43,057 nt of DNA from Thermodesulfobacteriota bacterium (lineage in GTDB: Bacteria; Desulfobacterota; JAZFTZ01): positions 1 to 43,057 of the forward strand of contig JAZFTZ010000166.1 in NCBI GenBank assembly GCA_036446955.1, written 5' to 3'. Below, piece after piece: positions 1 through 39,798 of the stretch; positions within the stretch are counted from its first letter, which is position 1; every line of letters starts with the position of its first letter. Both the position numbers and the translations under genes were made by a program. The notes below the pieces were generated by a model. That model did no database searches. It saw nothing but the letters and a program-made list of their open reading frames with translations, and was not told the origin of the DNA.

Positions 1-36
1 GAATAACCCTTTTCAAAGGGTTTTCCCCACAATAAC
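1..36. repeat. Copy A (cut by the window edge) of the dispersed palindromic intergenic repeat; core TTGTGGGGRAAACCC-TTTNCAAA-GGGTTYYCCCCAC
   Basis: Positions 1-36 read GAATAACCCTTTTCAAAGGGTTTTCCCCACAATAAC. The reverse complement, GTTATTGTGGGGAAAACCCTTTGAAAAGGGTT, matches 5266-5290 (GTTATTGTGGGGGAAACCCTTTTCA) almost base for base. It lies about 60 nt downstream of the stop of the minus-strand gene 95..1774. Confidence 0.6.
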
Positions 37-13061: not shown

Positions 13062-13940
13062 TTAGCCGGAATTCATCCCGGCTTTTTTCAAGAGCAACTC
13101 CCATTCCCAATCCACCTGCTGCTGGATATCTCTCATCTCCTGTTCACTGAGGTGGCTGTATCTGCCCTGCAACTTCAGATATTCCTCCACTGGCAGCCCT
13201 TTGGGAACCCGGTTGATAGTATAGTTCCAGCCCGCTTCCACTTCGTAAAGGGGAAAGATTTTGGTGTCTACCGCCAGCCGGGCCAGCTTAACCGTGAGAT
13301 GGTCCGAGCTCTTCCAGCCGGGCGGGCAGGGGGCGAGGATATGGATGAACTTGCTGCCCCTGATGGACATGGCCTTTTTGATTTTCCTTATCAGGTCATC
13401 AGGGAAACCCACCGAGGCGTTAGCCGCGTACGGGATGCGGTGGGCGGCCAATATCTCCATCATGTCCTTCTTGGGCATATCCTTGCCGTAAGGGGTGGTT
13501 CCGGTCCAGGCCTTCCAAGGGGTGGCCGAACTTTTCTGGATACCGGTATTCATATAGCCTTCATTGTCATAGCAGACATAGATGAAATCTTCATTTCTAT
13601 CCACCGCGCCGGATAGGGCCTGAAAGCCGATGTCATAAGTGCCGCCATCCCCGGCCCAGCCGACTACGGTGGTCTCATAGTCGCCTTTCGCCTCCAGGCC
13701 GTGTTTTAGCCCAGAGGCCACCGCCGCCGCGGTGGCAAAGGCGGTATGGAATACCGGCACCTTCATGCAGGTAGTGGGATAGGGCCCGGTGATGACCACC
13801 GCGCAGCAGGCCGGCATCACCAGCATCACCTTGGTGCCCAGGGCCTTCAAGGCAAAGCGCAACGCCAGGGCCGCGCCGCAGCCGGGACAAGCCGGATGGC
13901 CGGAATAAATCAAGTCTGTCTCAGGAAGCTGGAATTTCAT
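13062..13940 (-). CDS. 2-oxoacid:ferredoxin oxidoreductase, beta (TPP-binding) subunit (POR/VOR type)
   Basis: The motifs GHPACPGCGAALALR, GDGGTYDIG and CYDNEGYMNTG are present. An AAGGTGA RBS precedes the ORF. Confidence 0.9.
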   Translation of the reverse strand: MKFQLPETDLIYSGHPACPGCGAALALRFALKALGTKVMLVMPACCAVVITGPYPTTCMKVPVFHTAFATAAAVASGLKHGLEAKGDYETTVVGWAGDGGTYDIGFQALSGAVDRNEDFIYVCYDNEGYMNTGIQKSSATPWKAWTGTTPYGKDMPKKDMMEILAAHRIPYAANASVGFPDDLIRKIKKAMSIRGSKFIHILAPCPPGWKSSDHLTVKLARLAVDTKIFPLYEVEAGWNYTINRVPKGLPVEEYLKLQGRYSHLSEQEMRDIQQQVDWEWELLLKKAGMNSG

Positions 13941-13944
13941 CTGA

Positions 13945-15090
13945 TCACCTTACCCAGATATAATCTTCTTTTGGCTGTGTATGTTTTTCCATGTATTCTA
14001 CCACCTCTTCAAGCAGGGCCGGGCTTACATCGCAGCCGCCCACCCCCGCCAGAAAGCCAAATACCGGGGCATGTCCAACCACATTGGCCAAAGCGGCTTT
14101 AACTTCCTGGCAAAATATCCCGCCGTGACCAAGAGATACGTTCCTATCCAGTACGGCTATCTTGCTTGCACCCGAGAGTGCCTGGCGGATTCGCTCCCCG
14201 GGGAAGGGACGGAAAAGTCTTATCTTAACCAAGCCCACCGACTTGCCCTTCCCTCTCAACTCATCCACTACATCCCGGGCGGTACCGGCTATAGTGCCTG
14301 AGGTAACCAGCACCATTTGGGCATCATGGCACTGGTACTCTTCCACCAATCCATAACCTCTGTTAAAGATTTCTTTAAACTCTCGGTCTGCCTTCTCAAC
14401 AACTCCTTTTACCGTCTCCATGTCGCGCTGCATCTTATACCTGAATTCTCGGTACTGCTCCTGAGTGGTGGTCGATCCAATTGTTCTGGGGTCATTGACG
14501 TCAAGCCTGTATTGGCCGGAGTAAGGAGGAAGATACCTATCCACTTGTTGCGGATCAGGCATCTCCACCGGCTCGGTGGTATGAGAGATGAGGAAAGCCT
14601 CGATAACCACCATGACCGGAAGCAACACCTCTTCCGCTACCCGGTAAGCCTGAATGAGATTATCCAGGGCCTCCTGGTTGTTCTCGCTGTAAATCTGTAC
14701 CCAGCCGGTATCTCGTTGAGAAAGGCTGTCGGTCTGATCACTCCAAAAGCTCCAAGGCGCGGCAATAGACCGATTCACATTAACCATGACAATGGGCAAC
14801 CGGTCGCCGGCGGCGAAATGGAGCAGTTCGTGCATCATCGCCAATCCCTGCGACGCGGTGGCGGTAAACACCCGGGCACCAGCCAGGGACGCGCCCATGC
14901 AAGCCGCCATGGCGGACTGTTCCGATTCCACCCTGATCATCCGAGCGTTCAACTCCCCGGAGATGGTCAAATCAGAGAGCTTCTCGTAGATAGGCGTCTG
15001 CGGTGTTATCGGGTAGGCGGCTATCACCTCTACCTTGACCAGCTTTACCCCGTAGGCGACCGCATGGTCTCCGGTCAGTAGCATGTTCAT
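13945..15090 (-). CDS. 2-oxoacid:ferredoxin oxidoreductase, alpha subunit
   Basis: The start was trimmed to ATG 15090 (MNMLLTGDHAVAYG...AAYPITPQT), which forms an ATGA overlap with the upstream gene stop (15087-15090). Confidence 0.9.
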   Translation of the reverse strand: MNMLLTGDHAVAYGVKLVKVEVIAAYPITPQTPIYEKLSDLTISGELNARMIRVESEQSAMAACMGASLAGARVFTATASQGLAMMHELLHFAAGDRLPIVMVNVNRSIAAPWSFWSDQTDSLSQRDTGWVQIYSENNQEALDNLIQAYRVAEEVLLPVMVVIEAFLISHTTEPVEMPDPQQVDRYLPPYSGQYRLDVNDPRTIGSTTTQEQYREFRYKMQRDMETVKGVVEKADREFKEIFNRGYGLVEEYQCHDAQMVLVTSGTIAGTARDVVDELRGKGKSVGLVKIRLFRPFPGERIRQALSGASKIAVLDRNVSLGHGGIFCQEVKAALANVVGHAPVFGFLAGVGGCDVSPALLEEVVEYMEKHTQPKEDYIWVR

Positions 15091-16826
15091 GGCTGTTCCT
15101 CGATAGTGGTGACTACCCGGCGAGGACACTCCTGCGCGCAGAGGGCGCAACCCTTACAATAGTCGTAATTTATCTGATAGCCCAATACTGATCCGTCCCT
15201 GGTAATTGCCATATCCGGGCAAAAGATCAGGCAGTTATCGCATTTGGTGCAGTGGCCGCAATTGAAGCAGCGGGCTCCCTCTTTCAGCGCGTCTTCGGCG
15301 CCAAAGCCGAGGTTGACCTCGGCGAAGGAAGCCAGCCGCTTTTTCGAGCCGGCCTTTTTGGGATCCAGTCGATCTTGGTTTTCGAAATAGTCCAGGTTTA
15401 TATCCGCGAAGGTCACCACCTTGCTTAAGTCCGATGGCTCCTCCCCGTTGATGTACAAGGCAAAGGACATGCTTCCTTTCCGCCCCACTCCTATTTGGGA
15501 AATTTCCTCGGCGCCCTTGCCAGCCAGATTTCGATCGATTGCCAGAGCCGCCTTCTTGCCCGAAGCGATAGCAGCTACCACGGTGCCTTTTGCTTCCGTC
15601 ACATCTCCACCGGCGTACACACCCGCCAGGCTGGTCTGGCCCCATTCGTCCACCAGTATACCCCTGGGGCCGGTCTTGACTTCTTCAGGCAGGATTCCCA
15701 GCTCCGGTCGTTGGCCGACAGCGGTAATGAGCAGGTCGGCGGGAATGGAAAAGCCACTGCCTGGCCTCTTTTCCAGTCGAGGCTGACCATCCGGGCCAAA
15801 GCCGGTAAGTTGACCTTCCACAAACTCCACCGCCCTGGTTGCCCCGCTGCGAGTGGTGATCTTGACTGGGGCTGCTCCGCACACCAGCTTCAAACCCTCT
15901 TGCTCAGCCTCGGCCACTGCCTCAGCCACCGCGGGCATTTCTTCCCTTGTTTCCAGGGACACAATAGTTACCTGTAGATAGCCCTGCCGAAGGGCACACC
16001 GGCCCGCGTCAACGGCTACATCGCCACCGCCGATAACCAGAGCCGCCTTACCCAAGGGCCGAAACCGACGCTCGTTAACCTGCCTTAGAAAATCGATGCC
16101 GCTAATAACGCCGGCGGCGTCTTCGTTGGCCAGATTCAGCCGCCGGCTTTCAGCAAAACCCGGAGCTAAGAAGACCGCGGCATAGCCGTGAAGCTCTTCC
16201 CAGCGAAGCTCCGCCCCCAGTCGCTTTCTGAGCTTTATCTGGACACCGGTGTTCAATATGCCCCGAATTTCGCGGTCGAGGGCCTCTTTAGGAAGTCTAT
16301 ATTGAGGTATGCCGGTACGTAATACACCGCCAAGCTGCCTGGTAGCCTCATAAAGAGTGACCCTGTACCCCAATCGGCTGAGGAAATAGGCACAACTCAG
16401 ACCGGCCGGACCGGAGCCGACCACCGCCACCCGGCTCTCTTTCCTTGCTGCAGAGGAAACCGGGGGCGCTGATTCCCATCCCTGGTCGGCCAGAAAGCGC
16501 TCCATCTCTTTTATGGCCAGCGGTGCATCGAACTCCTTTCGGTTACATGCCTCTTCACAAGGATGGGGGCAGACCCGGCCACATACCCCGGCCAAAGGAT
16601 TTTCATCCCGGATTATTTGAGCCGCCTCGGCAAACCTACCCTGGGAGGCGTGCTCCAAGGCCAGCGCCATGTCCACCCCGGCAGGACACGCCTCCCGGCA
16701 TGGTGCTGCCTTGGGCAAATAAACCGGACGCAGCTGGCGCCATCTTCCGGTTTTGAAGCGCAAGGTAGTAGCGAAGGTTATGGCCGAGGGAGAGTCATCC
16801 ACCGACCAGAAGTTAGATATCACCAT
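15087..16826 (-). CDS. Fusion protein: GltD/NfnB-like NAD(P)H-dependent FAD/Fe-S oxidoreductase (N-terminal, about 440 aa) plus PorD-like 2x[4Fe-4S] ferredoxin (C-terminal, about 80 aa)
   Basis: The N-terminal Cys clusters (CREACP, CGRVCPHPCEEAC) and dinucleotide folds (VVGSGPAGLSCA and VIGGGDVAVDA) are typical of the glutamate synthase small-chain family. The C-terminus carries CTKCDNCLIFCP and CKGCALCAQECP. The ORF sits between the gamma and alpha subunit genes with overlaps at both ends. Confidence 0.85.
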   Translation of the reverse strand: MVISNFWSVDDSPSAITFATTLRFKTGRWRQLRPVYLPKAAPCREACPAGVDMALALEHASQGRFAEAAQIIRDENPLAGVCGRVCPHPCEEACNRKEFDAPLAIKEMERFLADQGWESAPPVSSAARKESRVAVVGSGPAGLSCAYFLSRLGYRVTLYEATRQLGGVLRTGIPQYRLPKEALDREIRGILNTGVQIKLRKRLGAELRWEELHGYAAVFLAPGFAESRRLNLANEDAAGVISGIDFLRQVNERRFRPLGKAALVIGGGDVAVDAGRCALRQGYLQVTIVSLETREEMPAVAEAVAEAEQEGLKLVCGAAPVKITTRSGATRAVEFVEGQLTGFGPDGQPRLEKRPGSGFSIPADLLITAVGQRPELGILPEEVKTGPRGILVDEWGQTSLAGVYAGGDVTEAKGTVVAAIASGKKAALAIDRNLAGKGAEEISQIGVGRKGSMSFALYINGEEPSDLSKVVTFADINLDYFENQDRLDPKKAGSKKRLASFAEVNLGFGAEDALKEGARCFNCGHCTKCDNCLIFCPDMAITRDGSVLGYQINYDYCKGCALCAQECPRRVVTTIEEQP

Positions 16827-17364
16827 TAAGGCTATTCACCTCCTGATAAGCCGCGCGGGCAGCTTGTTCATTTGCCTTAACATTGCTAGGAACTGTCTCT
16901 CTTATCACTCGGATAATGGTATCCAACTCGACCGCTTGCGATATCCGGGCGTAGCCCCCCAGGATGGCGGTATTCACCAGCACGCCCAGATTATAGCGGG
17001 TGGCTATCTGACTGGCATCTACTGTGTAGAGTCGGCACGAGTCACCAAGCTTAAGGCCGGCGGGAAACTCATCGCAGTTTATCAAAAGACAGCCCTTCGC
17101 TTTCAGCCCCTGGGTGACTGGTGCCTCATTTAGCAGGGATGCATCAAGGCAGATGACGTGGTCAGGGGAAGTTATCTCGCACCTTCGCCGGATGCGGCTT
17201 TGGTCGACCCGGACAAATCCCACCACCGGCATGCCTCTCCTCTCTCCACCGAAAGAGGAGAAACATTGGGGATATTTTCCCTCTAAAAAAAAGGCCGAGG
17301 CCAACATCTGGGAAGCGTAAACAGCCCCCTGACCTCCCCTGCCGTGAATTCTGATTTCCACCAC
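16813..17364 (-). CDS. 2-oxoacid:ferredoxin oxidoreductase, gamma subunit
   Basis: The N-terminus IRIHGRGGQGAVYASQMLA...FGGERRG is typical. The start is GTG, and the 3' end overlaps the next gene by 14 nt. Confidence 0.9.
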   Translation of the reverse strand: MVEIRIHGRGGQGAVYASQMLASAFFLEGKYPQCFSSFGGERRGMPVVGFVRVDQSRIRRRCEITSPDHVICLDASLLNEAPVTQGLKAKGCLLINCDEFPAGLKLGDSCRLYTVDASQIATRYNLGVLVNTAILGGYARISQAVELDTIIRVIRETVPSNVKANEQAARAAYQEVNSLNGDI

Positions 17365-17411
17365 CGCTAGTCAACTCCGCCTCAGCTGCGATTCAACATT
17401 CGCATGTTTTC

Positions 17412-17429
17412 CTCTGGCACCCGCCAGAG
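17412..17429 (-). promoter_or_regulatory. SECIS-like hairpin (7-bp stem CUCUGGC/GCCAGAG, GGGU loop) starting 11 nt 3' of an in-frame UGA
   Basis: The minus strand reads UGA AGC GUC UAG CA CUCUGGC GGGU GCCAGAG GAAAA. Spacing and G/U-containing apical loop fit the minimal E. coli fdhF SECIS geometry. It could alternatively, or additionally, act as an operon terminator hairpin, although it has no U-tract. Confidence 0.6.
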
Positions 17430-17431
17430 TG

Positions 17432-17659
17432 CTAGACGCTTCAACTGCCACCGAAGCCGATAGTGACCTTACCACCTTCGATTATAGTTGGCACCTCCCT
17501 CCTGCCGGTGCGCTTAATCATCGCCTCGCGATTTTCTTTATTATATAGCACATCCAGTTCGGTATATTTCAACCCTCTTTTTTGGAAGTCATCCTTGGCG
17601 GCATGGCAGTAAGGACAATCAGGTCTGGTATAAACCAGCATCTTCTCAGCCATTCTCAT
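17432..17659 (-). CDS. Glutaredoxin-like protein (CPYC), probably a selenoprotein ending ...GFGGS-U-S-V-stop (TGA at 17441-17443 recoded)
   Basis: The ORF track ends at TGA 17441-17443. The next in-frame codons are AGC GTC TAG (17440-17432), with a SECIS-like hairpin immediately downstream. The N-terminal region reads YTRPDCPYCHAAKDDF. The ATG forms an ATGA overlap with the GNAT stop. If there is no recoding, the CDS is 17441..17659. Confidence 0.65.
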
Positions 17660-18105
17660 CTCCTTTCCCTTCCCAGCCTTCGTTCCAGGATAATATACTC
17701 GCTCCGGTGAAAACCGCTGGACATGAAGTAGCTGACCAAATCACCGGCATTCCAGTCCACCATGATCCGCACTGTATCCACACCAGCTTCAACAAAACGC
17801 TGGCAAAGGGACTCCACCAGTTCTCTTCCCACCCCTTTTCTGTGGTAGCTGGGGTCAACGCCGACAATCTCCAGCCAGCCGGTTAAAGGGACACCGAACT
17901 CCCAACCTCGAATCTCACCCAGGATGAAACCAGCCAACTGGCCGTTAACCTCGGCCACCAGACAGGCAGACCCACCTCGTCTCAAGTAGCCAATGGCCTT
18001 TTCCTGCCAGTAGTCAGAGTTATTCTTACCCGTGATCTTACGGTCAATGGCAAGGATCCCGGGAATATCTGACTCGGTCAAATCTCGGATGAAAATCTTC
18101 GCCAC
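17656..18105 (-). CDS. GNAT-family N-acetyltransferase
   Basis: The acetyl-CoA binding block VGVDPSYHRKGVGRELV is present. The ORF is 149 aa with a GTG start 6 nt after the upstream stop. Confidence 0.85.
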   Translation of the reverse strand: MAKIFIRDLTESDIPGILAIDRKITGKNNSDYWQEKAIGYLRRGGSACLVAEVNGQLAGFILGEIRGWEFGVPLTGWLEIVGVDPSYHRKGVGRELVESLCQRFVEAGVDTVRIMVDWNAGDLVSYFMSSGFHRSEYIILERRLGRERR

Positions 18106-18111
18106 GATAAC

Positions 18112-19410
18112 CTAATACTGTCTGGCCTGACCGGGCCTCAAATAGTTGGCAAAAAAAACTGCACCCAGCTTCTTAAATAAATGGCGATTGAAATTTCTCT
18201 TTATTATATCCTTGAAACTGGCCTGACCGGAGACCGAGTCGAAAAGGGAATCATAAAGCACCGGATCGATCTTGCCCAACTCCACCAGCCTATCAAATAG
18301 GCCGTTCTTGCTGGCCCAGCGGCAAAAAAGGCGCACCCCGACGCCGAAATAGTAATCGTCTAATAGCTCCTTGCAATCCCGGGCATATTGGGCGAGATCT
18401 TCCTCAGCCAATCCCCTCCTCACCATAATTCGGGCGGCTCGAATTCCAGTGAGCAGAGCGATGTTAACCCCTTTGCCCTTGAAAGGCCGCATCCAACCGG
18501 TGGCATCTCCGACCAATACGAACCTATCGCCGTAAGGATTTTTGGCTGGCGCGATAGGAAATTTTCCCTCGAAGTAATGTAAACTGTCCCGGTCAAAAGG
18601 GGGAAGATGAGCCCGAACCTGAGGCAGCTCCAGGAATTTATCCATATCTAGAGAGGTAACCTCTCTGCCAGCTATATTTATAATCAGGTGATCCCCCTTG
18701 GGCGTTATAGCTCCAAACTCCACCCGAGAAACGGAATCAGGCATCAGAAAGGCATATATGATGTTGCCCAGTTTTTGCTCAATAAAGACCTTATCAGCAT
18801 GAAATTTGGTGATAAAGGTTCTCAAATACTTACTGGGCCGTCTGTAGCCGACTGAATTCTTGGTGGCCCTCTCAAAGGCAGAGAGCATGGCCTCGTCCAG
18901 GCCAAAGGCCCCCACCACGGCCGCGGCGCGCAGATAGCCGCTATCGCTGTATATCCTGACTTCATCAGACCGGTCCGATCTCACAAACTCAATATCAGAG
19001 ACCCGGCTGCGCACTACCTCCACTCCCATTGCCTGGGCCTGTTCCAGAAGGAAAGCATCAAACAGCAGGCGACGCACAGTAAAGGTCGGGCCGGAGGTGT
19101 TTTTCCCCACCAGCAGTACCTCATTGTTCTTGGAATGGAGCCGATAGGCGTAAATCTCTCTTTTAACCAGCCCGGTTGGCAGGGATAGACCCAATTCTGA
19201 TTCCAGGATGTCAGTAAGAGGCGGGGAGAGAACTCCCACGCACTGGTTATAATGGACCTTAAAGTCTTTGCTCTCGAACAGGGTAACCTTGAGAGCAAGC
19301 CCGGTTCGGCGGGCTTCCCGTATCAGCGTTATCGCGCAGGCGGAGCCGGCTGGACCACCACCCACGATAGCTACCGTGCTGCCGTTTTCAAGTCTTAACG
19401 GTTTGTCCAT
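18112..19410 (-). CDS. FAD-dependent oxidoreductase, geranylgeranyl-reductase-like (paralogue 2)
   Basis: The start was trimmed to ATG 19410 (MDKPLRLENGSTVAIVGGGPAGSACA), overlapping the upstream gene stop by 16 nt. A later GD motif (VLVGDATGW) is present. Confidence 0.8.
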   Translation of the reverse strand: MDKPLRLENGSTVAIVGGGPAGSACAITLIREARRTGLALKVTLFESKDFKVHYNQCVGVLSPPLTDILESELGLSLPTGLVKREIYAYRLHSKNNEVLLVGKNTSGPTFTVRRLLFDAFLLEQAQAMGVEVVRSRVSDIEFVRSDRSDEVRIYSDSGYLRAAAVVGAFGLDEAMLSAFERATKNSVGYRRPSKYLRTFITKFHADKVFIEQKLGNIIYAFLMPDSVSRVEFGAITPKGDHLIINIAGREVTSLDMDKFLELPQVRAHLPPFDRDSLHYFEGKFPIAPAKNPYGDRFVLVGDATGWMRPFKGKGVNIALLTGIRAARIMVRRGLAEEDLAQYARDCKELLDDYYFGVGVRLFCRWASKNGLFDRLVELGKIDPVLYDSLFDSVSGQASFKDIIKRNFNRHLFKKLGAVFFANYLRPGQARQY

Positions 19411-20756
19411 CCCTGTCGCCAAGCCAATGATAAGGAAGAGCGCAAAACCTCGACTAGCAAGCTTGCATTCAGTCCCTTGACGAAGATGCGTCGGTAGGGG
19501 ACGTTGCCGGTAAACATGTGCCACAGTATGGTGGATAGTATCTTGTTATCGTCTTCCTCATCCGCCTGTTCCCGCTGAGCCACATCCAGGCATATCCGGC
19601 AAAGGACGTCACTGGAGGAGAACAAGCGGTAAAGGAAAAACATCAGTTTCCCGATATGATTATCCCGGGCAAATAGACGCCGGCAGGGGAGATAATAATG
19701 ATTATAGAAATCTTTCCCAGATATGCCGTTGGCTAACGCGGCCTGAGCTGCCAGCCCAGCGGTGATGAAGGCTGACTCTATTCCGTTTTTTAAATAGCGA
19801 CAAAAACCAGCATCACCTATTATCACCATCCGGTCAGCATAAGCCCACCGGGCGTGACCTATGGGAACCTGGGGATGGCAATGGCATAAGGATTCCCAGG
19901 GAGTGGGAAGGTATTCCCGCACCAAAGGCGAGGCCATCTCATGCTGTAAATCCTTTATCCGGACGTGAGGGCCAATGCCGGTGACGGTAAGGTAATTGCC
20001 TTTGGGTGTTATGGCCAGGAAGTGCAGACCAGACTTGACGGTGGAGAAAATGTGGATCATATCCTTGAGTTTGTCGCGGATAAACTCCCGGTCCGCCTCC
20101 AGCTCGGTCTGGCAAGTGTGCCAGGTTTGGGGAGGCCAATACCCCGGGAAAAACCTTCTCAGAATACCGCTATTAACGCCAAAAGCACCCACCACCAGGT
20201 CCATCTCCTCCCTGGTGTTATTGAACTTAATTACCGGCTTTTCTCGCCCGCTGGAGGGAAACTCCACCGCATCAACTCGCTGCTGGATGACCTTTGCCCC
20301 GGATAAAGCCGCGCAATTGAGGAGATGCTGGTCGAAACTGAAGGTCTCTCCCCTAGCCCGGTGGCCTCTGGGCCCGCCGCCCCGGAAAACCGTGTATATT
20401 TTTTCCTCCAAAACAGGGCTGAGAAATACCACCCGGTCCGCACCGTGGAAGGAATAGCCCACTACCTCTTGACGTACTACTTGGGGAGGAAGGGGCAGAC
20501 CCATTTCTTCCAAATGGGTTACCAGGCCAGACCCAATAGCGCCGGCGCACATGTTGCAGCCGCGCGGTCCTACCTCGTCAAAATCCCTCCGGTCATATAT
20601 GGTTATCTCTAATTCCAGGTTGAGTTTTTGAGCCAGACGGGAGGCGACCAAGGCAAAGAAACTACCCGCCGGCCCACCTCCCAGCACACCGATACGAGAT
20701 CCTTTTCCCAAGACAAGCGGGGATGCCACTGAAACCCCCGAGGGTAAGAGATTCAT
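19395..20756 (-). CDS. FAD-dependent oxidoreductase, geranylgeranyl-reductase-like (paralogue 1)
   Basis: The motifs IGVLGGGPAGSFFA, GCNMCAGAIGSG (at the position of the GGR PCGG motif) and VIIGDAGFC are present. The ORF is 453 aa. Confidence 0.8.
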   Translation of the reverse strand: MNLLPSGVSVASPLVLGKGSRIGVLGGGPAGSFFALVASRLAQKLNLELEITIYDRRDFDEVGPRGCNMCAGAIGSGLVTHLEEMGLPLPPQVVRQEVVGYSFHGADRVVFLSPVLEEKIYTVFRGGGPRGHRARGETFSFDQHLLNCAALSGAKVIQQRVDAVEFPSSGREKPVIKFNNTREEMDLVVGAFGVNSGILRRFFPGYWPPQTWHTCQTELEADREFIRDKLKDMIHIFSTVKSGLHFLAITPKGNYLTVTGIGPHVRIKDLQHEMASPLVREYLPTPWESLCHCHPQVPIGHARWAYADRMVIIGDAGFCRYLKNGIESAFITAGLAAQAALANGISGKDFYNHYYLPCRRLFARDNHIGKLMFFLYRLFSSSDVLCRICLDVAQREQADEEDDNKILSTILWHMFTGNVPYRRIFVKGLNASLLVEVLRSSLSLAWRQGWTNR

Positions 20757-21176: not shown

Positions 21177-21376
21177 ATGAGCAGGAAAGTATTAAACCCG
21201 AGCAGATCATTGGGAAGTTGCGTGAGGCTGAGGTGCTGTTGGGTCAGAGCCATACGGTGGGGCAGGTGAGCCGTAAGCTTGGCATAACCGAGCAGACCTA
21301 CTATCGCTGGCGTAAGGAATATGGGGGGATGCGGGTTGAGCAGGCCAAGCGGCTCAAGGAGGCAGAGAAGGAGAAT
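21177..21376 (+). pseudogene. IS3-family transposase orfA relic (frameshifted N-terminus, truncated after about 65 codons)
   Basis: The ATG at 21177 gives MSRKV.., and a 1-nt frameshift near 21190-21196 leads into KPEQIIGKLREAEVLLGQSHTVGQVSRKLGITEQTYYRWRKEYGGMRVEQAKRLKEAEKEN. This is the classic IS3 OrfA HTH plus the start of the leucine zipper. Similarity stops abruptly at 21376. No orfB and no recognisable inverted repeats are present. Confidence 0.75.
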
Positions 21377-21582
21377 TTTTTTAGAACAGCTCTATCGCCC
21401 CAGCCGTACACCCCTTCCTCCTGCATTGCATCGGTATGATAAGTCCCTGAAGATTAGCTATTATCTCTCGGAAAGGAGCGGGAGACCAACTTGGAAGAAG
21501 AGATCCATAAGCCGGCGGTCAAAAGAGGAACCAGTCGAAGAGCTGTTGTTCAAGACTGGCCAGCCTAGTCAGCCCCTCCTGA

Positions 21583-23973
21583 TTAGCGATTAGGGGAAAT
21601 ACCTGGGGACTTCCTGCCCAGACCCTTGGAGAGCAGATAAGGAGTTACTGGTAGGCTCTTTACTCTAAAACCGGTGGCGTCGTAGATGGCATTGGCCACC
21701 GCTGCCAGCATACCGGCCACCGTCCCCTCTCCCGCCTCCTTGGCGCCGAAAGGACCCTTGGGATCCAGGCTGTGTACCAAATCTATCTCCATGGCCGGGG
21801 TATCGCTGGAAGTAGGCAGGTGATACTCCAGGAAGGAAGGATTATATACCGTGCCGTGCTCCAAGGTTACCAGTTCGCTTAAAACCTGGCCCAATCCCAT
21901 AGAGATGCAGCCTTCGATCTGCCCCTCGACTATCTGGACATTTAAGGGGAAACCGCAGTCGTGAACGGTAACCACCTTCAATACCTTGACCTGAGCGGTC
22001 TCCAGGTCGACCTCCACCTCGGCCACCTGGGCGGCAAAGCCGTAGGCCTCGGTCCAGCGGCCTTTAATCTTGGCCAGGCTGGGGTAATAGTCGGCTTCAG
22101 CTACCGGTTTTTGAGACCCTTTGCCGACGATAGAATCGCCTCCTCGCCTTTGAATGCTGGCGGCGATAACTTGGGCATAGGAAACCGCCTTTTCCGGAGC
22201 CCCGGCCACGAACACCCGCTTATCAGCCAGCTTGAGGTCAGCCGGGTTGGCCTCCAGGAGCTGGGCGGCCGCCTTGATGAGCTGATCCCTGGCGTCCGCG
22301 GCCGCCGCGGCTACCGCCTTACCGCTGACCATGGCGCCACCACTGAGAAATGAGCCCAGGTCAATGGGACACAGCTCAGTGTCCCCGGAGACCAGCCTTA
22401 TCTCCTCCAGTTTAAGCCCCAGCACCTGCGCGGCAACCTGGGCCAGAGTAGTGTCACAGCCCTGACCCATCTCGGTAGCTCCGGTAAACAGGGTGGCAGT
22501 GCCATCGTCATGCATCTTTACTATTGCTGCTGAGGCAAAGGGGTAATAGGCCGCGCCACTGAACATCGAGCAGGTGGAGATACCCAACCCTGTCCGCTTG
22601 CTGCCCTGGGACTTGGGCATTTTCCTTTTTCCTTTAAAGTTGGAGATGGCCACTGCTCTCTCTATACATTCCTTGAGTCCGCAACTGTGTAAAGTGTCTC
22701 CGGTGCCGTAAAGTACATCCCCCTTCTCTCTGGCGTTTTTGAGCATAAGATCGGCAGGGTCTAAACCAAGCTCGTCCGCGATCATACAGAGCTGGGAATC
22801 GACGGCAAACCGGATCTGGGGCGCGCCATGGCCTCGTTGAGGGCCCTTTACCGGGTTGTTGGTATAGACCGCCAATCCTTGATAGCGGATGTTGGCAACC
22901 CGGTACACCGGGATGTGGAAGGTATAGCCCAGGAAAATGACTACCGGCCCACTGCCCCGATAAGCGCCGTTATCCACTACAAAGGCGATATCCTGAGCCA
23001 GGATCGCGCCGTCCTTGGCCACTCCAGTGGTTATATCTATCATGACCGGATGGCGATGCCGGGTGGTGGCGAACACCTCCTCCCGAGAAAGCTCAATCCG
23101 CACCGGCTTACCCGCCTGGCGGGCCAGCAGCCCGGCCAGAATCTCATAAGGGAATAGATCGATCTTACCGCCAAAAGCACCGCCCACGTAGGTCTTAACT
23201 ATCCTCACCTTACCCAAAGATAACCCCAACACCTTGGCCAAGATGAACCGTTTGTAGAATATCCCCATGCTGGACAGGTGAATGGTCAACTTGCCGGAGA
23301 GGTCAAAGGAGGCCACGGCCACATGCGGTTCCAGCGCGCAGTGGGCGGTAGCCGGGGTCTCGAACCTGTCCTGGCGAACGTGGTGAGACTGATTAAGGCC
23401 TTTTTCAACATCACCGAAGGACACCGAGGTGCGGGCACTAATATTATCCCCTCGCCGTACCGGCTCAAACTCGCCTCGGCCACTTGCCCCCCACTCCTCC
23501 CAGACCGTCTTTCCCCTATAGTCCAGCTCGTGGACTAAAGGCGCATCAGGAAGCAGAGCCTTTTCCGGATGAAAAACCGCGGGCAAGGGCTCCAGGTCCA
23601 CGCGAATAAGACTTAACGCCTCCTCGGCCGTAGCCTCATCCACCGCGGCCACCGCGGCCAGTTCATCCCCGATGTACCTGGCCTTGGTCACTGCCAGCGG
23701 GTTCTGGTCGGCCGGATACCTAGGCGTATCCACGAACGCGTAACGGATATGGGCCACGTCCTTTCCAGTTAAGACGGCCTTGACTCCAGGCAACCGGCGG
23801 GCGCGGTTGACATCCACATGCAAAACCCGGGCATGGGGATGACTCGAGCGCAGAATCTTTCCCCAGAGCATCCCGGGAAGATAAATGTCCGCGCTGAACT
23901 TCCCCTCTCCACTGGCTTTTTCTCCCGCATCCAGCCGGGGCAGGGGTTTACCCACCACTTTGAACTTTTCCAT
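21583..23973 (-). CDS. Xanthine dehydrogenase/aldehyde oxidase family molybdopterin-binding large subunit (stand-alone)
   Basis: The start was trimmed to ATG 23973 (MEKFKVVGKPLPRLDAGEKASGEGKF.., an a/b-hammerhead start) with GGAGG 7 nt upstream. The 796-aa ORF has family blocks throughout (GGAFGGK, the RGHGAPQ region, and a C-terminal GAKEAGEG). The 48-codon ORF-track extension runs through an intergenic repeat. Confidence 0.9.
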   Translation of the reverse strand: MEKFKVVGKPLPRLDAGEKASGEGKFSADIYLPGMLWGKILRSSHPHARVLHVDVNRARRLPGVKAVLTGKDVAHIRYAFVDTPRYPADQNPLAVTKARYIGDELAAVAAVDEATAEEALSLIRVDLEPLPAVFHPEKALLPDAPLVHELDYRGKTVWEEWGASGRGEFEPVRRGDNISARTSVSFGDVEKGLNQSHHVRQDRFETPATAHCALEPHVAVASFDLSGKLTIHLSSMGIFYKRFILAKVLGLSLGKVRIVKTYVGGAFGGKIDLFPYEILAGLLARQAGKPVRIELSREEVFATTRHRHPVMIDITTGVAKDGAILAQDIAFVVDNGAYRGSGPVVIFLGYTFHIPVYRVANIRYQGLAVYTNNPVKGPQRGHGAPQIRFAVDSQLCMIADELGLDPADLMLKNAREKGDVLYGTGDTLHSCGLKECIERAVAISNFKGKRKMPKSQGSKRTGLGISTCSMFSGAAYYPFASAAIVKMHDDGTATLFTGATEMGQGCDTTLAQVAAQVLGLKLEEIRLVSGDTELCPIDLGSFLSGGAMVSGKAVAAAAADARDQLIKAAAQLLEANPADLKLADKRVFVAGAPEKAVSYAQVIAASIQRRGGDSIVGKGSQKPVAEADYYPSLAKIKGRWTEAYGFAAQVAEVEVDLETAQVKVLKVVTVHDCGFPLNVQIVEGQIEGCISMGLGQVLSELVTLEHGTVYNPSFLEYHLPTSSDTPAMEIDLVHSLDPKGPFGAKEAGEGTVAGMLAAVANAIYDATGFRVKSLPVTPYLLSKGLGRKSPGISPNR

Positions 23974-24067
23974 CGCCAACCTCCATACCTCGAAAGCCAA
24001 TGTTAACAAGTTTTCCCCGGGCAAGACAATATAAAGGTTGATCTTGGCCACCGGTCGATAGCCAATT

Positions 24068-24120
24068 GCGGGGGAAACCTTCTCTGGGGAAAACCCTTTA
24101 CAAAGGGTTCTTCCCACAGA
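24068..24120. repeat. Copy C (full palindrome plus upstream partial duplication) of the intergenic repeat
   Basis: The sequence is GCGGGGGAAACCTTCTCTGGGGAAAACCCTTTACAAAGGGTTCTTCCCACAGA. The palindrome arms are GGGGAAAACCCTTT and AAAGGGTTCTTCCC. It ends 6 nt before a -35 box. Confidence 0.7.
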
Positions 24121-25065: not shown

Positions 25066-25090
25066 GTGGTAAAAAGTGGGAGATTGTGGA
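25066..25090 (+). promoter_or_regulatory. Three direct GTGGN boxes with 10-bp phasing (MraZ operator-like)
   Basis: The boxes are GTGGT (25066), GTGGG (25076) and GTGGA (25086), each separated by 5 nt. They lie between the -10 box and the mraZ ATG (25097). Confidence 0.6.
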
Positions 25091-25096
25091 GGTCAG

Positions 25097-25537
25097 ATGT
25101 TTAGAGGCCGCTTCCTCCATACCATCGACGAAAAAGGCCGGATAATGGTCCCAGCCAAGTTCCGGGAGGAACTCCGCACCCGGTACGATGAATGTCTAAT
25201 CGTAACAAACTTCGACGGCTGCCTAGTAGCCTATCCCCGGGAAGAATGGCACAAGCTGGAAGAAAAGCTTATGCAGAAATCGATGGTCAAGCGGGAGGTA
25301 AAGGCCTTCGTTCGTTTCTTCGTTTCTGGAGCCACTGAGTGTTCCCTGGACGACCAGGGAAGAGTTTTGATTCCTCCCCCCCTGAGGGAGTACGCGGAAC
25401 TGGAGCGGGAGTTGGTGTTGGCCGGCATGCTGAATAAGATCGAGATCTGGAACAAGCAGAAGTGGGACCACGAGATCAGTACCTCTGGACAGAATATCGA
25501 CCAACTGACTGAAGCGCTGGCGGACCTGGGCATCTAA
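25097..25537 (+). CDS. mraZ: Transcriptional regulator MraZ
   Basis: The start was trimmed to ATG 25097 (MFRGRFLHTIDEKGRIMVPAKFR), the canonical MraZ N-terminus. A second DDQGRVLIP repeat is present. Confidence 0.95.
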   Translation: MFRGRFLHTIDEKGRIMVPAKFREELRTRYDECLIVTNFDGCLVAYPREEWHKLEEKLMQKSMVKREVKAFVRFFVSGATECSLDDQGRVLIPPPLREYAELERELVLAGMLNKIEIWNKQKWDHEISTSGQNIDQLTEALADLGI

Positions 25538-25540
25538 AGT

Positions 25541-25598
25541 TTTCCAGGGCGGGAGGGGGAAAGGGAGCCGGCCCCTTTCCCTTACAGTTTTTTTATTT
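25541..25598 (+). terminator. Hairpin plus T-run between mraZ and rsmH (attenuator or terminator candidate; related to the GC-hairpin repeat module)
   Basis: The sequence begins TTTCCAGGGCGGGAGG, followed by the stem GGGAAAGGG (25557-25565) / CCCTTTCCC (25573-25581), then TTACAG and TTTTTTTATTT. Confidence 0.45.
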
Positions 25599-25637
25599 CA
25601 AGACGATAACGGCTTTATATAAAAAGGCGGGCTGCTC

Positions 25638-26576
25638 ATGGTTAGCCAGCACCGATCCGTGATGGCCAAGGAGGTAATAGACCTCCTGAGGCCGGCTGAG
25701 GGTATGGTATTTGTTGACGCCACTTTGGGTGCGGGCGGCCATGCCGATTTGATCTTGGAGCGGGTCGGGGCCAAAGGCCGTTTAATCGGCATTGATTGGG
25801 ATGAGGAGGCCTTGGCCGTGGCCCAAGAAAGGTTGAAAGGGTTTGGAGACTCGGTCAGCCTGGTTCGAGAAAACTTTATCAACCTGGCCACGGTCCTGGA
25901 TAAACAGGGAGTAGGTCTGGTGGATGGCTTGCTTTTCGACTTGGGGGTTTCCTCTTTGCAACTGGAAAGCTCTGACCGGGGTTTCAGTTTCAAGAACGAG
26001 GGCCAGTTGGATATGCGCATGGACCGGCGCCGCCCTCGCAGCGCGGCTCATTTGGTCAACCGGGCCAGCTTAAGAGAGCTGGAACGCCTGATCCGGGAAT
26101 TTGGGGAGGAGCGTTGGGCCAGGCGAATAGCTCAGGCCATTTGCAGACGCCGGGAGGAATCGGAGATAAGAACCACCCAAGACCTGGCCCAAACGGTGGT
26201 CTCGGCCATACCGGCGGCCTTCCGCCACGGTCCGATTCACGCAGCCACTCGTACCTTTCAGGCCCTTCGCATGGTAGTTAATGAGGAGCTGGAAAATTTG
26301 AGAAGAGGCATCCGAGCCGGGGTAAACGTTCTCAAGCCGGGTGGGAGAATGGTGGTGATTTCCTTTCACTCTTTGGAGGACGGATTAGTGAAACGGGAGA
26401 TGGGAGTCCTGAAAAAAGGTTGTATCTGTCCCCCCCGGCAGGCCCTCTGCACCTGCGGCAGGGTGCAGACCATCAGTCCCCTTACTCGCAAGCCAATGGT
26501 TCCTTCCCCTGAAGAGGTGAATAGTAATCCCCGAAGCCGGAGCGCCAAACTTAGGGCGGCGGAGAGAATAAGCTGA
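25638..26576 (+). CDS. rsmH: 16S rRNA (cytosine1402-N4)-methyltransferase
   Basis: The N-terminus HRSVMAKEVIDLL, the block DATLGAGGHA, and the gene's position in the dcw cluster support the call. Confidence 0.95.
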   Translation: MVSQHRSVMAKEVIDLLRPAEGMVFVDATLGAGGHADLILERVGAKGRLIGIDWDEEALAVAQERLKGFGDSVSLVRENFINLATVLDKQGVGLVDGLLFDLGVSSLQLESSDRGFSFKNEGQLDMRMDRRRPRSAAHLVNRASLRELERLIREFGEERWARRIAQAICRRREESEIRTTQDLAQTVVSAIPAAFRHGPIHAATRTFQALRMVVNEELENLRRGIRAGVNVLKPGGRMVVISFHSLEDGLVKREMGVLKKGCICPPRQALCTCGRVQTISPLTRKPMVPSPEEVNSNPRSRSAKLRAAERIS

Positions 26577-26589
26577 AGGAGGATGACTG

Positions 26590-26988
26590 ATGCGGAGTGT
26601 GGTTATAAGAACTATTGATCATGCGGAACTGGTTGGAGAGGAAAGCCTGCTTTCCCGCCTGAATTTAAAGAATTTAGATTTTGCCTTGGTCGCGCTATTG
26701 ATCTTTTTATTGGCAACCTCGGCCTTTGTCTTTCATGTATGGTCCCGGCTGTACGTCTTCCGTACGGGGTACGAGATCTATCAGCAGGAGAAAAGCAAGC
26801 AAGAATTGCTGGAGGAAAATCGAATACTGACTATGGAGGTGGCCAGCCTCAAATCGCCAGCCAGGCTAGAAAAGATCGCTCGACGAGAGTTGGGTTTGAG
26901 GTCGCCGCGACCAGAACAAGTGGTTATGATTCATCCCCGGGAACCAGCTCTGACTCTGACTAGTGCGCAATTGTCACTTCCGGAGTAG
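26590..26988 (+). CDS. ftsL: Cell division protein FtsL
   Basis: The 132-aa ORF has a single TM helix followed by a coiled coil. A GAAGGAGGA RBS and its position between rsmH and ftsI support the call. Confidence 0.85.
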   Translation: MRSVVIRTIDHAELVGEESLLSRLNLKNLDFALVALLIFLLATSAFVFHVWSRLYVFRTGYEIYQQEKSKQELLEENRILTMEVASLKSPARLEKIARRELGLRSPRPEQVVMIHPREPALTLTSAQLSLPE

Positions 26989-26992
26989 CTCG

Positions 26993-31921: not shown

Positions 31922-31944
31922 TCTGAGCTTAAGGAGCAGCAAGG

Positions 31945-33021: not shown

Positions 33022-33025
33022 GGAT

Positions 33026-34360: not shown

Positions 34361-34361
34361 A

Positions 34362-39786: not shown

Positions 39787-39798
39787 CCAGGGGGTAAA

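What the first reader, a model, noticed from the sequence alone, without database searches (positions are those of the whole stretch)
17412..17659. Glutaredoxin-like gene probably reads its UGA as selenocysteine (C-terminal U-x-x-stop), with a SECIS-like hairpin exactly 11 nt downstream
Seen in the sequence: the CPYC glutaredoxin-like ORF (minus strand) ends ...GFGGS at TGA (17443-17441). Reading on in frame gives TGA AGC GTC TAG, that is Sec-Ser-Val-stop (TAG at 17434-17432). Eleven nt after the UGA starts a perfect 7-bp stem, CUCUGGC/GCCAGAG, closed by a GGGU tetraloop (17429-17412).

Established knowledge: the minimal E. coli fdhF SECIS is an upper stem-loop with G/U in the apical loop, placed 11 nt 3' of the UGA. 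Bacterial SECIS models require a G-containing apical loop roughly 16-37 nt from the UGA.

From memory, and not verifiable here: RefSeq uses the family name 'Uxx-star family glutaredoxin-like (seleno)protein', which describes this C-terminal architecture. Standard ORF calling, including the supplied track, truncates the protein and loses the putative redox-active Sec.
Basis: partly seen in the sequence, partly recalled or inferred. Interest (0 to 1): 0.8.

Follow-up and report, generated by a model that had tools for sequence, protein, structure and literature searches.

The report
Glutaredoxin-like selenoprotein gene, already catalogued
This small glutaredoxin-like gene almost certainly reads its apparent TGA stop as selenocysteine, adding three residues (Sec-Ser-Val), but it belongs to the curated "Uxx-star" selenoprotein family and GenBank already names this very gene that way.

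Summary
On the minus strand the gene reads ...GFGGS-TGA-AGC-GTC-TAG. A perfect 7-bp hairpin with a GGGU loop (17429-17412) starts 11 nt after the TGA.

- With Sec written as Cys, the protein matches NCBIfam NF041212 "Uxx-star family glutaredoxin-like (seleno)protein" end to end (95.3 bits, cutoff 66).
- In 38 homologous loci plus the window, the codon is TGA every time. Codon +2 is Val in 35 of 39, spread over three synonymous codons. Codon +3 is always a stop, of any of the three kinds.
- 37 of 39 carry a SECIS-like hairpin in the same place, against 14% after control stops.
- Close relatives keep the stem through compensatory changes.
- Cys-for-Sec homologues exist (...GTCGV-stop).
- No U-tract follows the hairpin, and TGA is an ordinary stop elsewhere in the window.

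This exact product is GenBank MEE8449150.1, already named Uxx-star but deposited truncated at 70 aa, from a Thermodesulfobacteriota MAG.

Not testable here: whether the rest of the genome holds selA/B/C/D (none lies in the window).

Two local peculiarities: the N-terminal motif is CPYC, not the family's usual UxxT, and a GNAT/2-oxoacid oxidoreductase operon is conserved around the gene.

Low novelty.

The parts
17432..17653 (-). Full recoded CDS of the Uxx-star glutaredoxin-like selenoprotein: 73 codons (MAEKML...GFGGS-U-S-V) plus the TAG stop. The alternative upstream ATG is at 17659.
   Evidence: Sequence. NCBIfam NF041212 scores 95.3 bits over profile 2-70/70 and Pfam Glutaredoxin 58.8 bits. 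Public call of 70 aa from ATG 17653.
17441..17443 (-). In-frame UGA, read as selenocysteine (residue 71).
   Evidence: TGA in 39 of 39 compared family sequences, while the stop three codons later uses TAG, TAA or TGA freely. Cys sits at this position in P0091, P0135, P0154 and L018.
17432..17440 (-). Ser and Val codons (AGC GTC) and the true stop TAG (17434-17432).
   Evidence: Codon +2 is Val in 35 of 39 through GTG, GTC and GTT. Codon +1 is Gly, Ser, Ala or Glu through 12 codons. Codon +3 is always a stop.
17412..17429 (-). SECIS-like hairpin CUCUGGC-GGGU-GCCAGAG. It lies entirely 3' of the true stop codon, and its loop starts 18 nt after the UGA.
   Evidence: dG is -11.3 kcal/mol and all published bSECIS constraints are met. 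Homologous hairpins occur in 37 of 39 family members against 14% of controls. Compensatory pairs in close relatives. No U-tract.
17606..17617 (-). CPYC redox motif (Cys13 to Cys16) at the N-terminus of helix 1.
   Evidence: Invariant in the 8 close relatives. Helix 14-26 in the AF2 model. Most distant family members have U-x-x-T here.
17656..18105 (-). Context: GNAT acetyltransferase gene. Its TGA stop (17658-17656) lies 2 nt upstream of the selenoprotein start at 17653 and overlaps the alternative ATG at 17659. The pairing is conserved in all close relatives.
13062..17364 (-). Context: downstream 2-oxoacid:acceptor oxidoreductase genes, in order PorC-like gamma, a 579-aa GltD-like NAD(P)-binding/PorD-ferredoxin fusion, PorA-like alpha and PorB-like beta. 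They are syntenic with the selenoprotein gene in close relatives only.

Best explanation
The gene at 17653-17432 (minus strand) encodes a 73-residue glutaredoxin-fold selenoprotein of the Uxx-star family.

Decoding (inferred). When the ribosome reaches UGA at codon 71, the hairpin 11 nt downstream acts as a bacterial SECIS. It would recruit SelB-GTP-Sec-tRNA(Sec), so that Sec is inserted. Ser and Val follow, and UAG terminates. Only two codons follow the Sec codon, so the SECIS lies wholly in the 3' untranslated region, just ahead of the porC-like gene.

Protein (partly shown, partly inferred). It has a beta-alpha-beta-alpha-beta-beta thioredoxin/glutaredoxin core with CPYC at helix 1. It lacks the C-terminal helix of classical glutaredoxins. 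It ends in a flexible Gly-rich tail, GFGGS-U-S-V.

Mechanism (inferred). The tail follows strand 4 at the place of the GG-x-DD turn of classical glutaredoxins, which in those enzymes is part of the glutathione site beside the active-site Cys. The Sec would therefore swing onto Cys13 and form or resolve a selenenylsulfide. That would make it a mobile second redox centre, analogous to the GCUG tail of mammalian thioredoxin reductase.

Shown here: the sequence anatomy, family membership, comparative conservation of UGA-x-V-stop plus hairpin, and Cys/Sec pairs.

Inferred: actual Sec insertion in this organism, SelB binding, the redox role of the tail, and any link to the neighbouring GNAT and 2-oxoacid oxidoreductase genes.
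For: 1. Family membership. NF041212 Uxx_star scores 95.3 bits against a cutoff of 66, full length only with the extension. The truncated form still scores 88.3. Pfam Glutaredoxin scores 58.8 bits.
2. Thirty-four of 35 homologous loci from GTDB species genomes show G[FYH]GG[TS]-TGA-x-x-stop. Four distinct close relatives at 69-86% identity do too.
3. Codon statistics. TGA in 39 of 39. Codon +2 is Val in 35, Ile in 3 and Tyr in 1, with Val spread over GTG 14, GTC 12 and GTT 9. Codon +3 is a stop in 39 of 39, using TAG 20, TAA 13 and TGA 6. This is amino-acid-level selection downstream of the UGA.
4. A SECIS-like hairpin (stem at least 5 bp, loop of 3-6 nt with G in its first two positions, loop starting 14-25 nt after the codon) occurs in 37 of 39 family members. 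It follows 52 of 361 control stops, and 24 of 187 control TGA stops. Loops in the window's lineage are GGGU, GGGC, GGA, GGUC and GGUC.
5. Alignment of the window with 3 close relatives gives a 6-bp consensus stem. Two of its pairs change on both sides (U-A to C-G, G-C to A-U) and the others are kept or change G-C to G-U.
6. The published bSECIS constraints are all met. This is the only strong hit among the window's 17 TGA-terminated genes.
7. Cys homologues: P0091 GFPGTCGV-stop, P0135 GRYCAV-stop, P0154, L018.
8. No U-run follows the hairpin, and no terminator is called on that strand.
9. TGA is the commonest ordinary stop in the window (17 of 38), so there is no codon reassignment.
10. GenBank names this product [quoted passage not shown]. 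A 2026 review lists that phylum among the most selenoprotein-rich bacteria.
11. The AF2 model of residues 1-70 has a Grx-type core, no C-terminal helix, and residues 66-70 as low-confidence coil. The closest solved relative is E. coli Grx3.
Against: - No selA, selB, selD or tRNA-Sec lies in the 43-kb window or in the few kb of extra flank that could be fetched. Sec-decoding capacity of this genome is therefore unproven.
- No Rfam family matches the hairpin.
- The hairpin alone is only about a 1-in-20 event, and the local fold is not significant against shuffles (z = -0.99 and -1.35).
- The review's table places the UXX-star families after its "Predicted with high confidence" heading, not among the first-listed proteins. 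I found no labelling or mass-spectrometry evidence.
- The redox-tail mechanism is inference. The review suggests metal binding as an alternative role.
- The model could not include the Sec tail, and no distance from the tail to CPYC was measured.
Confidence: 0.87

Rival explanations
1. The TGA is a genuine stop in this organism and the product is the 70-aa glutaredoxin-like protein as deposited. The hairpin then serves as an mRNA-stabilising, processing or attenuating structure between the Grx-like gene and porC. Alternatively it is an inherited but now unused SECIS in a lineage that lost Sec decoding.
For: No Sec machinery was seen in the window. The hairpin sits in an intergenic gap of 67 nt (17431-17365) ahead of porC. 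The wider predicted fold pairs the stop region with the porC ribosome-binding region, but not significantly. The deposited GenBank product is 70 aa.
Against: - TGA is fixed in 39 of 39 sequences, whereas the next stop varies among TAG, TAA and TGA. Val at +2 is conserved through three synonymous codons. The stop always falls exactly at +3.
- Within the window's own lineage (69-94% identical proteins) the two codons and the hairpin are kept, with compensatory changes. That argues for current selection, not a relic.
- No U-tract follows the hairpin.
- Cys homologues extend through the same three residues.
Confidence: 0.07
2. Sec is inserted as proposed, but the C-terminal Sec, together with the CPYC cysteines, acts as a ligand for a metal or metalloid (for example Hg, As, Cu, or a selenium or sulfur carrier role). 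It would not be a mobile redox centre.
For: [quoted passage not shown] Three soft ligands (Cys13, Cys16, Sec71) on one small domain could chelate a thiophilic metal. Most family members pair an N-terminal U-x-x-T with the C-terminal U, which gives two selenols and no resolving Cys.
Against: No metal-resistance or transport genes flank the gene in the window or its relatives. The conserved neighbours are a GNAT, two flavoproteins and a 2-oxoacid oxidoreductase, which fits redox chemistry better. The core is a bona fide CPYC glutaredoxin fold.
Confidence: 0.2

Closest known systems
NCBIfam NF041212 "Uxx-star family glutaredoxin-like (seleno)protein", with sub-models NF041114 (family 1), NF041211 (family 2) and NF047338 (family 3). 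A 2026 review (PMC13188914) lists the UXX-star families as predicted selenoproteins and cites Zhang & Gladyshev 2008 and Haft & Tolstoy 2025.
   Same: - Glutaredoxin-like domain of about 70 aa.
- GFGG[ST]-U-x-x-stop C-terminus.
- SECIS hairpin immediately after the stop.
- HMM score above the curated cutoff.
- GenBank already applies this name to this gene.
   Different: The window protein has a classical CPYC at the N-terminal motif and one Sec. Of the 34 distant Uxx-star homologues compared, 31 have U-x-x-T there (two Sec), two have CPYT and one has CPYC. It only just reaches the family-1 cutoff (74 against 72), and the review gives UxxT with two Sec for family 1. Its GNAT/OFOR operon context is not shared with the distant members.
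E. coli fdhF-type bacterial SECIS and the general bSECIS consensus (Zhang & Gladyshev model, as summarised in PMC13188914)
   Same: A short G+C-rich stem-loop starting 11 nt after the UGA. The apical loop is small and begins with G followed by G or U (GGGU here, GGUC in relatives L041 and L042). The loop starts 18 nt from the UGA and dG is -11.3 kcal/mol. That fdhF has 11-nt spacing and a GGUC loop is from established knowledge and was not tested here.
   Different: The element lies entirely in the 3' UTR, after the true stop, whereas the review places bacterial SECIS elements within coding regions. No bulged U is evident. SelB binding is untested.
C-terminal Sec tail of mammalian thioredoxin reductase (-Gly-Cys-Sec-Gly-stop), and the engineered "Sel-tag" expressed in E. 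coli with an fdhF SECIS placed after the stop codon (established knowledge, not tested here)
   Same: Sec lies near the C-terminus on a flexible Gly-rich tail. The engineered case shows a bacterial SECIS can work from just beyond the stop codon, which is the geometry found naturally here.
   Different: The protein is unrelated (a small Grx fold, not a flavoprotein). Sec is third from the end, and no adjacent Cys sits in the tail. The partner would be the CPYC of the same domain.
Clostridial Sec-containing glutaredoxin (U-x-x-C active site; Kim et al. 2011, cited in PMC13188914)
   Same: A glutaredoxin-fold bacterial selenoprotein.
   Different: There Sec replaces the first Cys of the CxxC motif and the SECIS is inside the coding region. 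Here CxxC is intact and Sec is in a C-terminal extension. The C-terminal helix of classical Grx is absent.

Membership tests
NCBIfam NF041212 Uxx-star family glutaredoxin-like (seleno)protein | Whole-protein HMM score at or above the curated cutoff (66 bits) | tested here: met
   95.3 bits, E = 1.9e-27, profile 2-70/70 with U written as C. 88.3 bits for the truncated form.
NCBIfam NF041212 Uxx-star family glutaredoxin-like (seleno)protein | C-terminal Sec (or Cys) followed by exactly two residues and a stop ("Uxx-star") | tested here: met
   TGA AGC GTC TAG at 17443-17432. The same architecture occurs in 38 other loci.
NCBIfam NF041212 Uxx-star family glutaredoxin-like (seleno)protein | Glutaredoxin/thioredoxin fold with an N-terminal redox motif | tested here: met
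   PF00462 scores 58.8 bits. The AF2 model is beta-alpha-beta-alpha-beta-beta with CPYC at the helix 1 N-terminus. The best solved match is E. coli Grx3 1FOV.
NCBIfam NF041114 UXX-star selenoprotein family 1 (equivalog) | HMM score at or above the cutoff of 72 bits | tested here: inconclusive
   74.0 bits with U written as C, only 2 bits above the cutoff. 66.2 bits when truncated.
NCBIfam NF041114 UXX-star selenoprotein family 1 (equivalog) | N-terminal UxxT motif and two Sec residues (as tabulated in review PMC13188914) | tested here: not met
   The window has CPYC (17617-17606) and a single in-frame TGA.
Bacterial SECIS element (bSECIS consensus model) | Apical loop of 3-9 nt and upper stem of 4-16 bp | tested here: met
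   4-nt loop and 7-bp perfect stem.
Bacterial SECIS element (bSECIS consensus model) | G in the first two loop positions, usually followed by G or U | tested here: met
   Loop GGGU. Relatives have GGGC, GGA and GGUC.
Bacterial SECIS element (bSECIS consensus model) | [quoted passage not shown] | tested here: met
   18 nt and -11.3 kcal/mol.
Bacterial SECIS element (bSECIS consensus model) | Binds SelB and is required for UGA read-through | not testable with these tools
   Needs a binding or reporter assay.
Genuine selenoprotein gene (standard comparative criteria) | Homologues with Cys aligned to the UGA (Sec/Cys pair) | tested here: met
   P0091 ...VGFPGTCGV, P0135 ...GYKGRYCAV, P0154 ...GFQGIYCSLS, L018 ...GYRGIGCTFY.
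Genuine selenoprotein gene (standard comparative criteria) | Conservation at the amino-acid level downstream of the UGA | tested here: met
   Val at +2 in 35 of 39 through three codons. The stop falls exactly at +3 in 39 of 39.
Genuine selenoprotein gene (standard comparative criteria) | Host genome encodes selA, selB, selC (tRNA-Sec) and selD | not testable with these tools
   None lies in the window or in the fetched flanks. The rest of MAG GCA_044232495.1 could not be searched. The phylum is known as selenoprotein-rich.
Classical glutaredoxin (Grx3 TIGR02181; YruB-type TIGR02196) | Score above the curated cutoff, and a C-terminal helix after the GG motif | tested here: not met
   TIGR02196 scores 68.3 against 88.55. 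TIGR02181 scores 53.5 against 90. The protein ends in a coil right after strand 4.
Rho-independent terminator | G+C-rich hairpin followed directly by a U-tract | tested here: not met
   The hairpin is followed by GAAAACAUGCG. No terminator-like site is called on the minus strand here.

The most novel reading that the evidence does not exclude
The CPYC/one-Sec subgroup found here and in its close relatives may be a functionally distinct offshoot of the Uxx-star family. It would be a dedicated selenol-tailed redox partner for the operon it is embedded in: two geranylgeranyl-reductase-like flavoproteins, a GNAT that abuts it, and an NAD(P)H-linked 2-oxoacid oxidoreductase. For example, it could reactivate or regulate the oxidoreductase. 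Its 3'-UTR SECIS might also influence translation of the downstream porC, whose ribosome-binding region is predicted to pair with the Sec-tail codons.
Probability: 0.12. Interest if true: 0.5.

Novelty: already known. Interest (0 to 1): 0.22.

Why it matters
For annotation, the deposited protein (MEE8449150.1, 70 aa) lacks its probable catalytic residue. The correct product is 73 aa and ends in U-S-V.

For biology, the case is a clean natural example of a bacterial SECIS working from beyond the stop codon. That is the geometry exploited artificially in the "Sel-tag".

The comparative data assembled here give a compact, quantitative case for the family:
- 39 of 39 TGA
- Val at +2 through three synonymous codons
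- free choice of the final stop codon
- hairpins in 37 of 39

None of this changes what is already curated. The family's biochemical role remains untested, and that is where any real interest lies.

Tried and rejected
- **Rfam.** The scan at gathering threshold (whole window) and the permissive scan on 17360-17480 gave no SECIS or other relevant match. The bSECIS test was therefore done with the published constraints in a script.
- **RNAalifold on distant tails.** Run on a MAFFT alignment of 23 distant tails, it found no consensus structure. The hairpins vary in offset and loop length, so a sequence aligner puts them out of register. That result is not evidence against structure. I used per-sequence hairpin detection with a control set instead, and an alignment of close relatives.
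- **Hairpin-only alignment.** I prepared one for pair counting but did not use it. Selecting hairpins first would make the count circular.
- **Exact-product look-up.** The 72-aa product from ATG 17659 was not on record. The 70-aa product from ATG 17653 was.
- **Modelling the tail.** Only residues 1-70 were modelled, so the position of the tail relative to CPYC was not measured.
- **Second selenoprotein in the window.** A scan for ORFs interrupted by TGA and a check of the extensions of all 17 TGA-terminated genes found nothing convincing.
- **Looking for sel genes beyond the window.** Look-ups of edge genes gave no sel genes, and only short contigs of the same MAG were reachable.
- **Literature.** Haft & Tolstoy 2025 is not held. 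No paper mentions the assembly accessions.
- **Terminator reading.** Rejected for lack of a U-tract.
- **UGA reassignment.** Rejected because TGA ends 17 of 38 genes in the window.
Full report
**1. The observation**

On the minus strand the ORF reads ...GGC TTC GGT GGC AGT TGA (17443-17441) AGC GTC TAG (17434-17432). Two bases (CA) follow, then CTCTGGC-GGGT-GCCAGAG (17429-17412).
- the G-F-G-G-S end
- the Sec-Ser-Val-stop continuation
- the 11-nt spacer
- the perfect 7-bp stem
- the GGGU loop

The CPYC motif lies at 17617-17606.

One correction concerns the start. The first ATG (17659) directly abuts the GGAG at 17663-17660 and overlaps the stop of the upstream GNAT gene. The second ATG (17653) sits 6 nt after the GGAG. 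It is also the start used in public gene calls: the 70-aa product is on record and the 72-aa product is not.

**2. Is it more than chance?**

The hairpin alone is only moderately unusual.
- A hairpin of at least 7 bp in the defined position, with G early in the loop, follows 4.7% of control stop codons.
- The local fold does not stand out against shuffles (z = -0.99 for 66 nt; z = -1.35 for 89 nt).
- The hairpin meets every published constraint of the bacterial SECIS consensus. These are a loop of 3-9 nt, a stem of 4-16 bp, G in the first two loop positions followed by G or U, 16-37 nt from the UGA, and MFE at or below -7.5 kcal/mol. Here the values are a 4-nt GGGU loop, 7 bp, 18 nt and -11.3 kcal/mol.
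- Only 4.7% of the 1224 TGA triplets in the window pass my implementation of these constraints.
- Among the 17 genes of the window that end in TGA, this is the only one with a strong hit.

**3. Family membership**

With Sec written as Cys, the protein matches NCBIfam NF041212 "Uxx-star family glutaredoxin-like (seleno)protein" at 95.3 bits against a curated cutoff of 66. The match runs to the last profile position (2-70 of 70) only when the three extra residues are included. The truncated form scores 88.3 bits over profile 2-66. Pfam gives Glutaredoxin PF00462 at 58.8 bits. The classical glutaredoxin models (YruB-type, Grx3, NrdH) all fall below their cutoffs.

The sub-model NF041114 (family 1) is reached by only 2 bits (74 against 72). 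A 2026 review gives UxxT with two Sec as the motif of family 1, whereas the window has CPYC and one Sec. I therefore file the gene under the umbrella family only.

**4. Comparative evidence for recoding**

A scan of one genome per GTDB species returned 35 loci encoding relatives at 32-49% identity.
- Thirty-four show G[FYH]GG[TS]-TGA-x-x-stop.
- The thirty-fifth (L018, Dehalococcoidia) has Cys at that position...GYRGIGCTFY-stop.

Closer relatives (69-94% identical, P0001-P0007) were traced to their contigs. All keep TGA-x-Val-stop.

Over the 39 sequences (the window, the 34 distant homologues and four distinct close relatives), one search gives:
- The recoded codon is TGA in 39 of 39.
- Codon +1 is Gly 25, Ser 5, Ala 5 and Glu 4, through 12 different codons.
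- Codon +2 is Val in 35 (GTG 14, GTC 12, GTT 9), Ile in 3 and Tyr in 1.
- Codon +3 is a stop in 39 of 39, using TAG 20, TAA 13 and TGA 6.

This is what a translated Sec codon followed by two selected residues should look like. The first "stop" is fixed, the two residues after it are conserved at the amino-acid level with synonymous drift, and the final stop is chosen freely. A terminal stop followed by untranslated sequence would not give this pattern.

An exhaustive profile-free search of 1.84 billion representative proteins found many 69-72-aa relatives ending ...GFGG[TSG], which are probably truncated calls. It also found true Cys forms: P0091 ...VGFPGTCGV, P0135 ...GYKGRYCAV and P0154 ...GFQGIYCSLS. 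The standard Sec/Cys-pair criterion is therefore met.

**5. The hairpin across the family**

I used one fixed definition: a stem of at least 5 bp, a loop of 3-6 nt with G in its first two positions, and a loop starting 14-25 nt after the codon.
- 37 of 39 family sequences have such a hairpin.
- It follows 52 of 361 stops (14%) of other long ORFs in the same loci, and 24 of 187 (13%) of their TGA stops.
- With a stem of at least 7 bp the figures are 28 of 39 against 4.7%.

Stem sequences differ completely between lineages, while position and loop type stay the same (GTT, GTC, GGC, GGT, GGA, GGGT, GGTC).

In the alignment of the window with three close relatives, the consensus structure is a 6-bp stem.
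- Two pairs change on both sides and stay paired (U-A to C-G; G-C to A-U).
- The remaining pairs are unchanged or show G-C to G-U changes.

The hairpin is followed by GAAAACAUGCG and not by a U-run. The terminator scan calls nothing on that strand here. TGA is the commonest ordinary stop in the window (17 of 38 genes), so genome-wide reassignment of UGA is excluded.

**6. What could not be shown**

The window contains no tRNA gene. None of the annotated ORFs is SelA, SelB or SelD. No second selenoprotein gene was found. Attempts to look beyond the window reached only a few extra kb of the same MAG and found no sel genes.

An exact-sequence look-up shows that this product is GenBank MEE8449150.1, [quoted passage not shown]. 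Its contig is 43,057 bp, which is the length of the window. A 2026 review names Thermodesulfobacteriota among the bacteria richest in selenoproteins. That is circumstantial support only.

The review's table places the UXX-star families after its "Predicted with high confidence" heading rather than among the first-listed proteins. I found no labelling or mass-spectrometry evidence for any member.

**7. How it most likely works**

Decoding is inferred from the anatomy and from established knowledge of bacterial Sec insertion. SelB carrying Sec-tRNA(Sec) would bind the hairpin while the UGA is in the A site. Sec is inserted, Ser and Val follow, and UAG terminates. Only two codons follow the UGA, so the SECIS lies entirely in the 3' UTR. 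The review describes bacterial SECIS elements as residing within coding regions. From established knowledge, the engineered "Sel-tag" constructs of thioredoxin reductase expressed in E. coli show that a bacterial SECIS placed just after the stop codon is functional. The Uxx-star genes are the natural counterpart.

For the protein, the AF2 model of residues 1-70 (mean pLDDT 79) gives:
- strand 5-9
- helix 14-26, with CPYC at 13-16
- strand 30-34
- helix 39-49
- strands 56-59 and 62-65
- a low-confidence coil at 66-70, with no C-terminal helix

The closest solved relative is E. coli glutaredoxin 3 (1FOV/3GRX, E = 5e-11). In its sequence, recalled from memory and not returned by a tool here, strand 4 is followed by the GG-x-DD turn. 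That turn forms part of the glutathione site next to the active-site Cys.

The GFGGS-U-S-V tail occupies that place. I therefore infer that Sec71 can reach Cys13 and act as a mobile selenol. It would form and resolve a selenenylsulfide, much as the GCUG tail does in mammalian thioredoxin reductase.

Family-wide, 31 of 34 distant members have U-x-x-T at the N-terminal motif, with no resolving Cys. That fits the idea that the C-terminal Sec is the partner of the N-terminal chalcogen. A metal-ligand role, as suggested in the review, is not excluded.

**8. Local peculiarities**

The window protein and its seven close relatives have CPYC and a single Sec. CPYC is invariant across the eight sequences. 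Among the distant homologues only L008 shares CPYC.

The gene order is also conserved in the close relatives L036-L042:
1. two paralogous geranylgeranyl-reductase-like flavoproteins
2. GNAT
3. the Uxx-star gene
4. PorC-like gamma subunit
5. a 579-aa GltD-like/PorD fusion
6. PorA-like alpha subunit
7. PorB-like beta subunit

This order is absent around the 35 distant homologues. This is the only aspect that may go beyond what is curated. I could not read Haft & Tolstoy 2025 to check.

**9. Verdict**

It is not new. The family is curated in NCBIfam and listed in the recent review, and GenBank already gives this very gene the family name, although it deposits the product truncated at the UGA.

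Confidence that the UGA is decoded as Sec in the living organism is about 0.87. The residual doubt comes from the unseen Sec machinery and the lack of experimental evidence for any family member.

Noticed in passing
L003-L035 (for example L003 3001-3207), compared with window 17606-17617: 31 of the 34 distant Uxx-star homologues carry a second in-frame TGA at the N-terminal redox motif (U-P-Y-T and variants), so they are two-Sec proteins. Two have CPYT, and only L008 (Ignavibacteria) shares the window's CPYC.
   Followed up: partly
window 13062-20756 (minus strand); L036, L038-L042: A conserved operon occurs only in the window's lineage. Its order is two paralogous geranylgeranyl-reductase-like flavoproteins (about 31% identical to each other), a GNAT acetyltransferase, the Uxx-star gene, PorC-like gamma, a GltD-like/PorD fusion, PorA-like alpha and PorB-like beta. 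The GNAT stop lies 2 nt upstream of the selenoprotein start, or overlaps it in relative L041.
   Followed up: partly
window 15087-16826 (-): This 579-aa protein fuses a glutamate-synthase-small-subunit-like NAD(P)-binding flavoprotein with a C-terminal PorD-type 2x[4Fe-4S] ferredoxin, inside an OFOR operon. The layout recalls NADH-dependent phenylglyoxylate dehydrogenase. Its best NCBIfam hit, NF009410, scores 500 bits, just under the cutoff of 516.
   Followed up: no
window 21218-21439 (+): A short IS3-type transposase remnant (HTH_Tnp_1 ORF of 66-73 aa) sits between the Mo-hydroxylase gene and the flavoprotein genes. In relative L039 the region upstream of the flavoproteins is different (cytochrome c7, two-component and sigma-54 regulators). 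This looks like a rearrangement point.
   Followed up: no
window 21583-24117 (-): A xanthine-dehydrogenase-family molybdopterin large subunit, closest to 4-hydroxybenzoyl-CoA reductase alpha (650 bits, below the cutoff of 995). No adjacent FAD or 2Fe-2S subunit genes were recognised. The ORF as listed has an N-terminal extension of about 48 aa over the public call (796 aa).
   Followed up: no
window 17358-17446 (-): The MFE fold encloses the SECIS hairpin in a longer stem. That stem pairs the Val/stop codons (GCGUCUAGC) with the GCUGAGGCG segment that holds the likely porC ribosome-binding site. The fold is not significant against shuffles (z = -1.35) and is not obviously conserved in L041 or L042.
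   Followed up: partly
window 3144-3695 (-) and 4072-4476 (-): Two archaeal-type genes in a bacterial MAG. The first is an Hsp20 whose best match is the archaeal model NF041800 (below cutoff). The second is a CTP-dependent riboflavin kinase (PF01982).
   Followed up: no
P0031, P0050: Some relatives have Thr where the family has Sec or Cys (...GFGGSTQV...GFQGYTAV) while keeping the x-V-stop tail. These may be non-redox derivatives of the Uxx-star tail.
   Followed up: no
window 18112-19524 and 19395-20756 (-): The two flavoprotein ORFs overlap by 130 nt as listed mechanically. Public calls give 432 aa and 444 aa with only a short overlap, so the downstream gene probably starts later than the first GTG.
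   Followed up: no
window 25076-42932 (+): A complete division/cell-wall (dcw) cluster running from mraZ and rsmH through ftsL, a PASTA-containing PBP, the mur genes, ddl, ftsQ and ftsA to ftsZ. It is ordinary.
   Followed up: no
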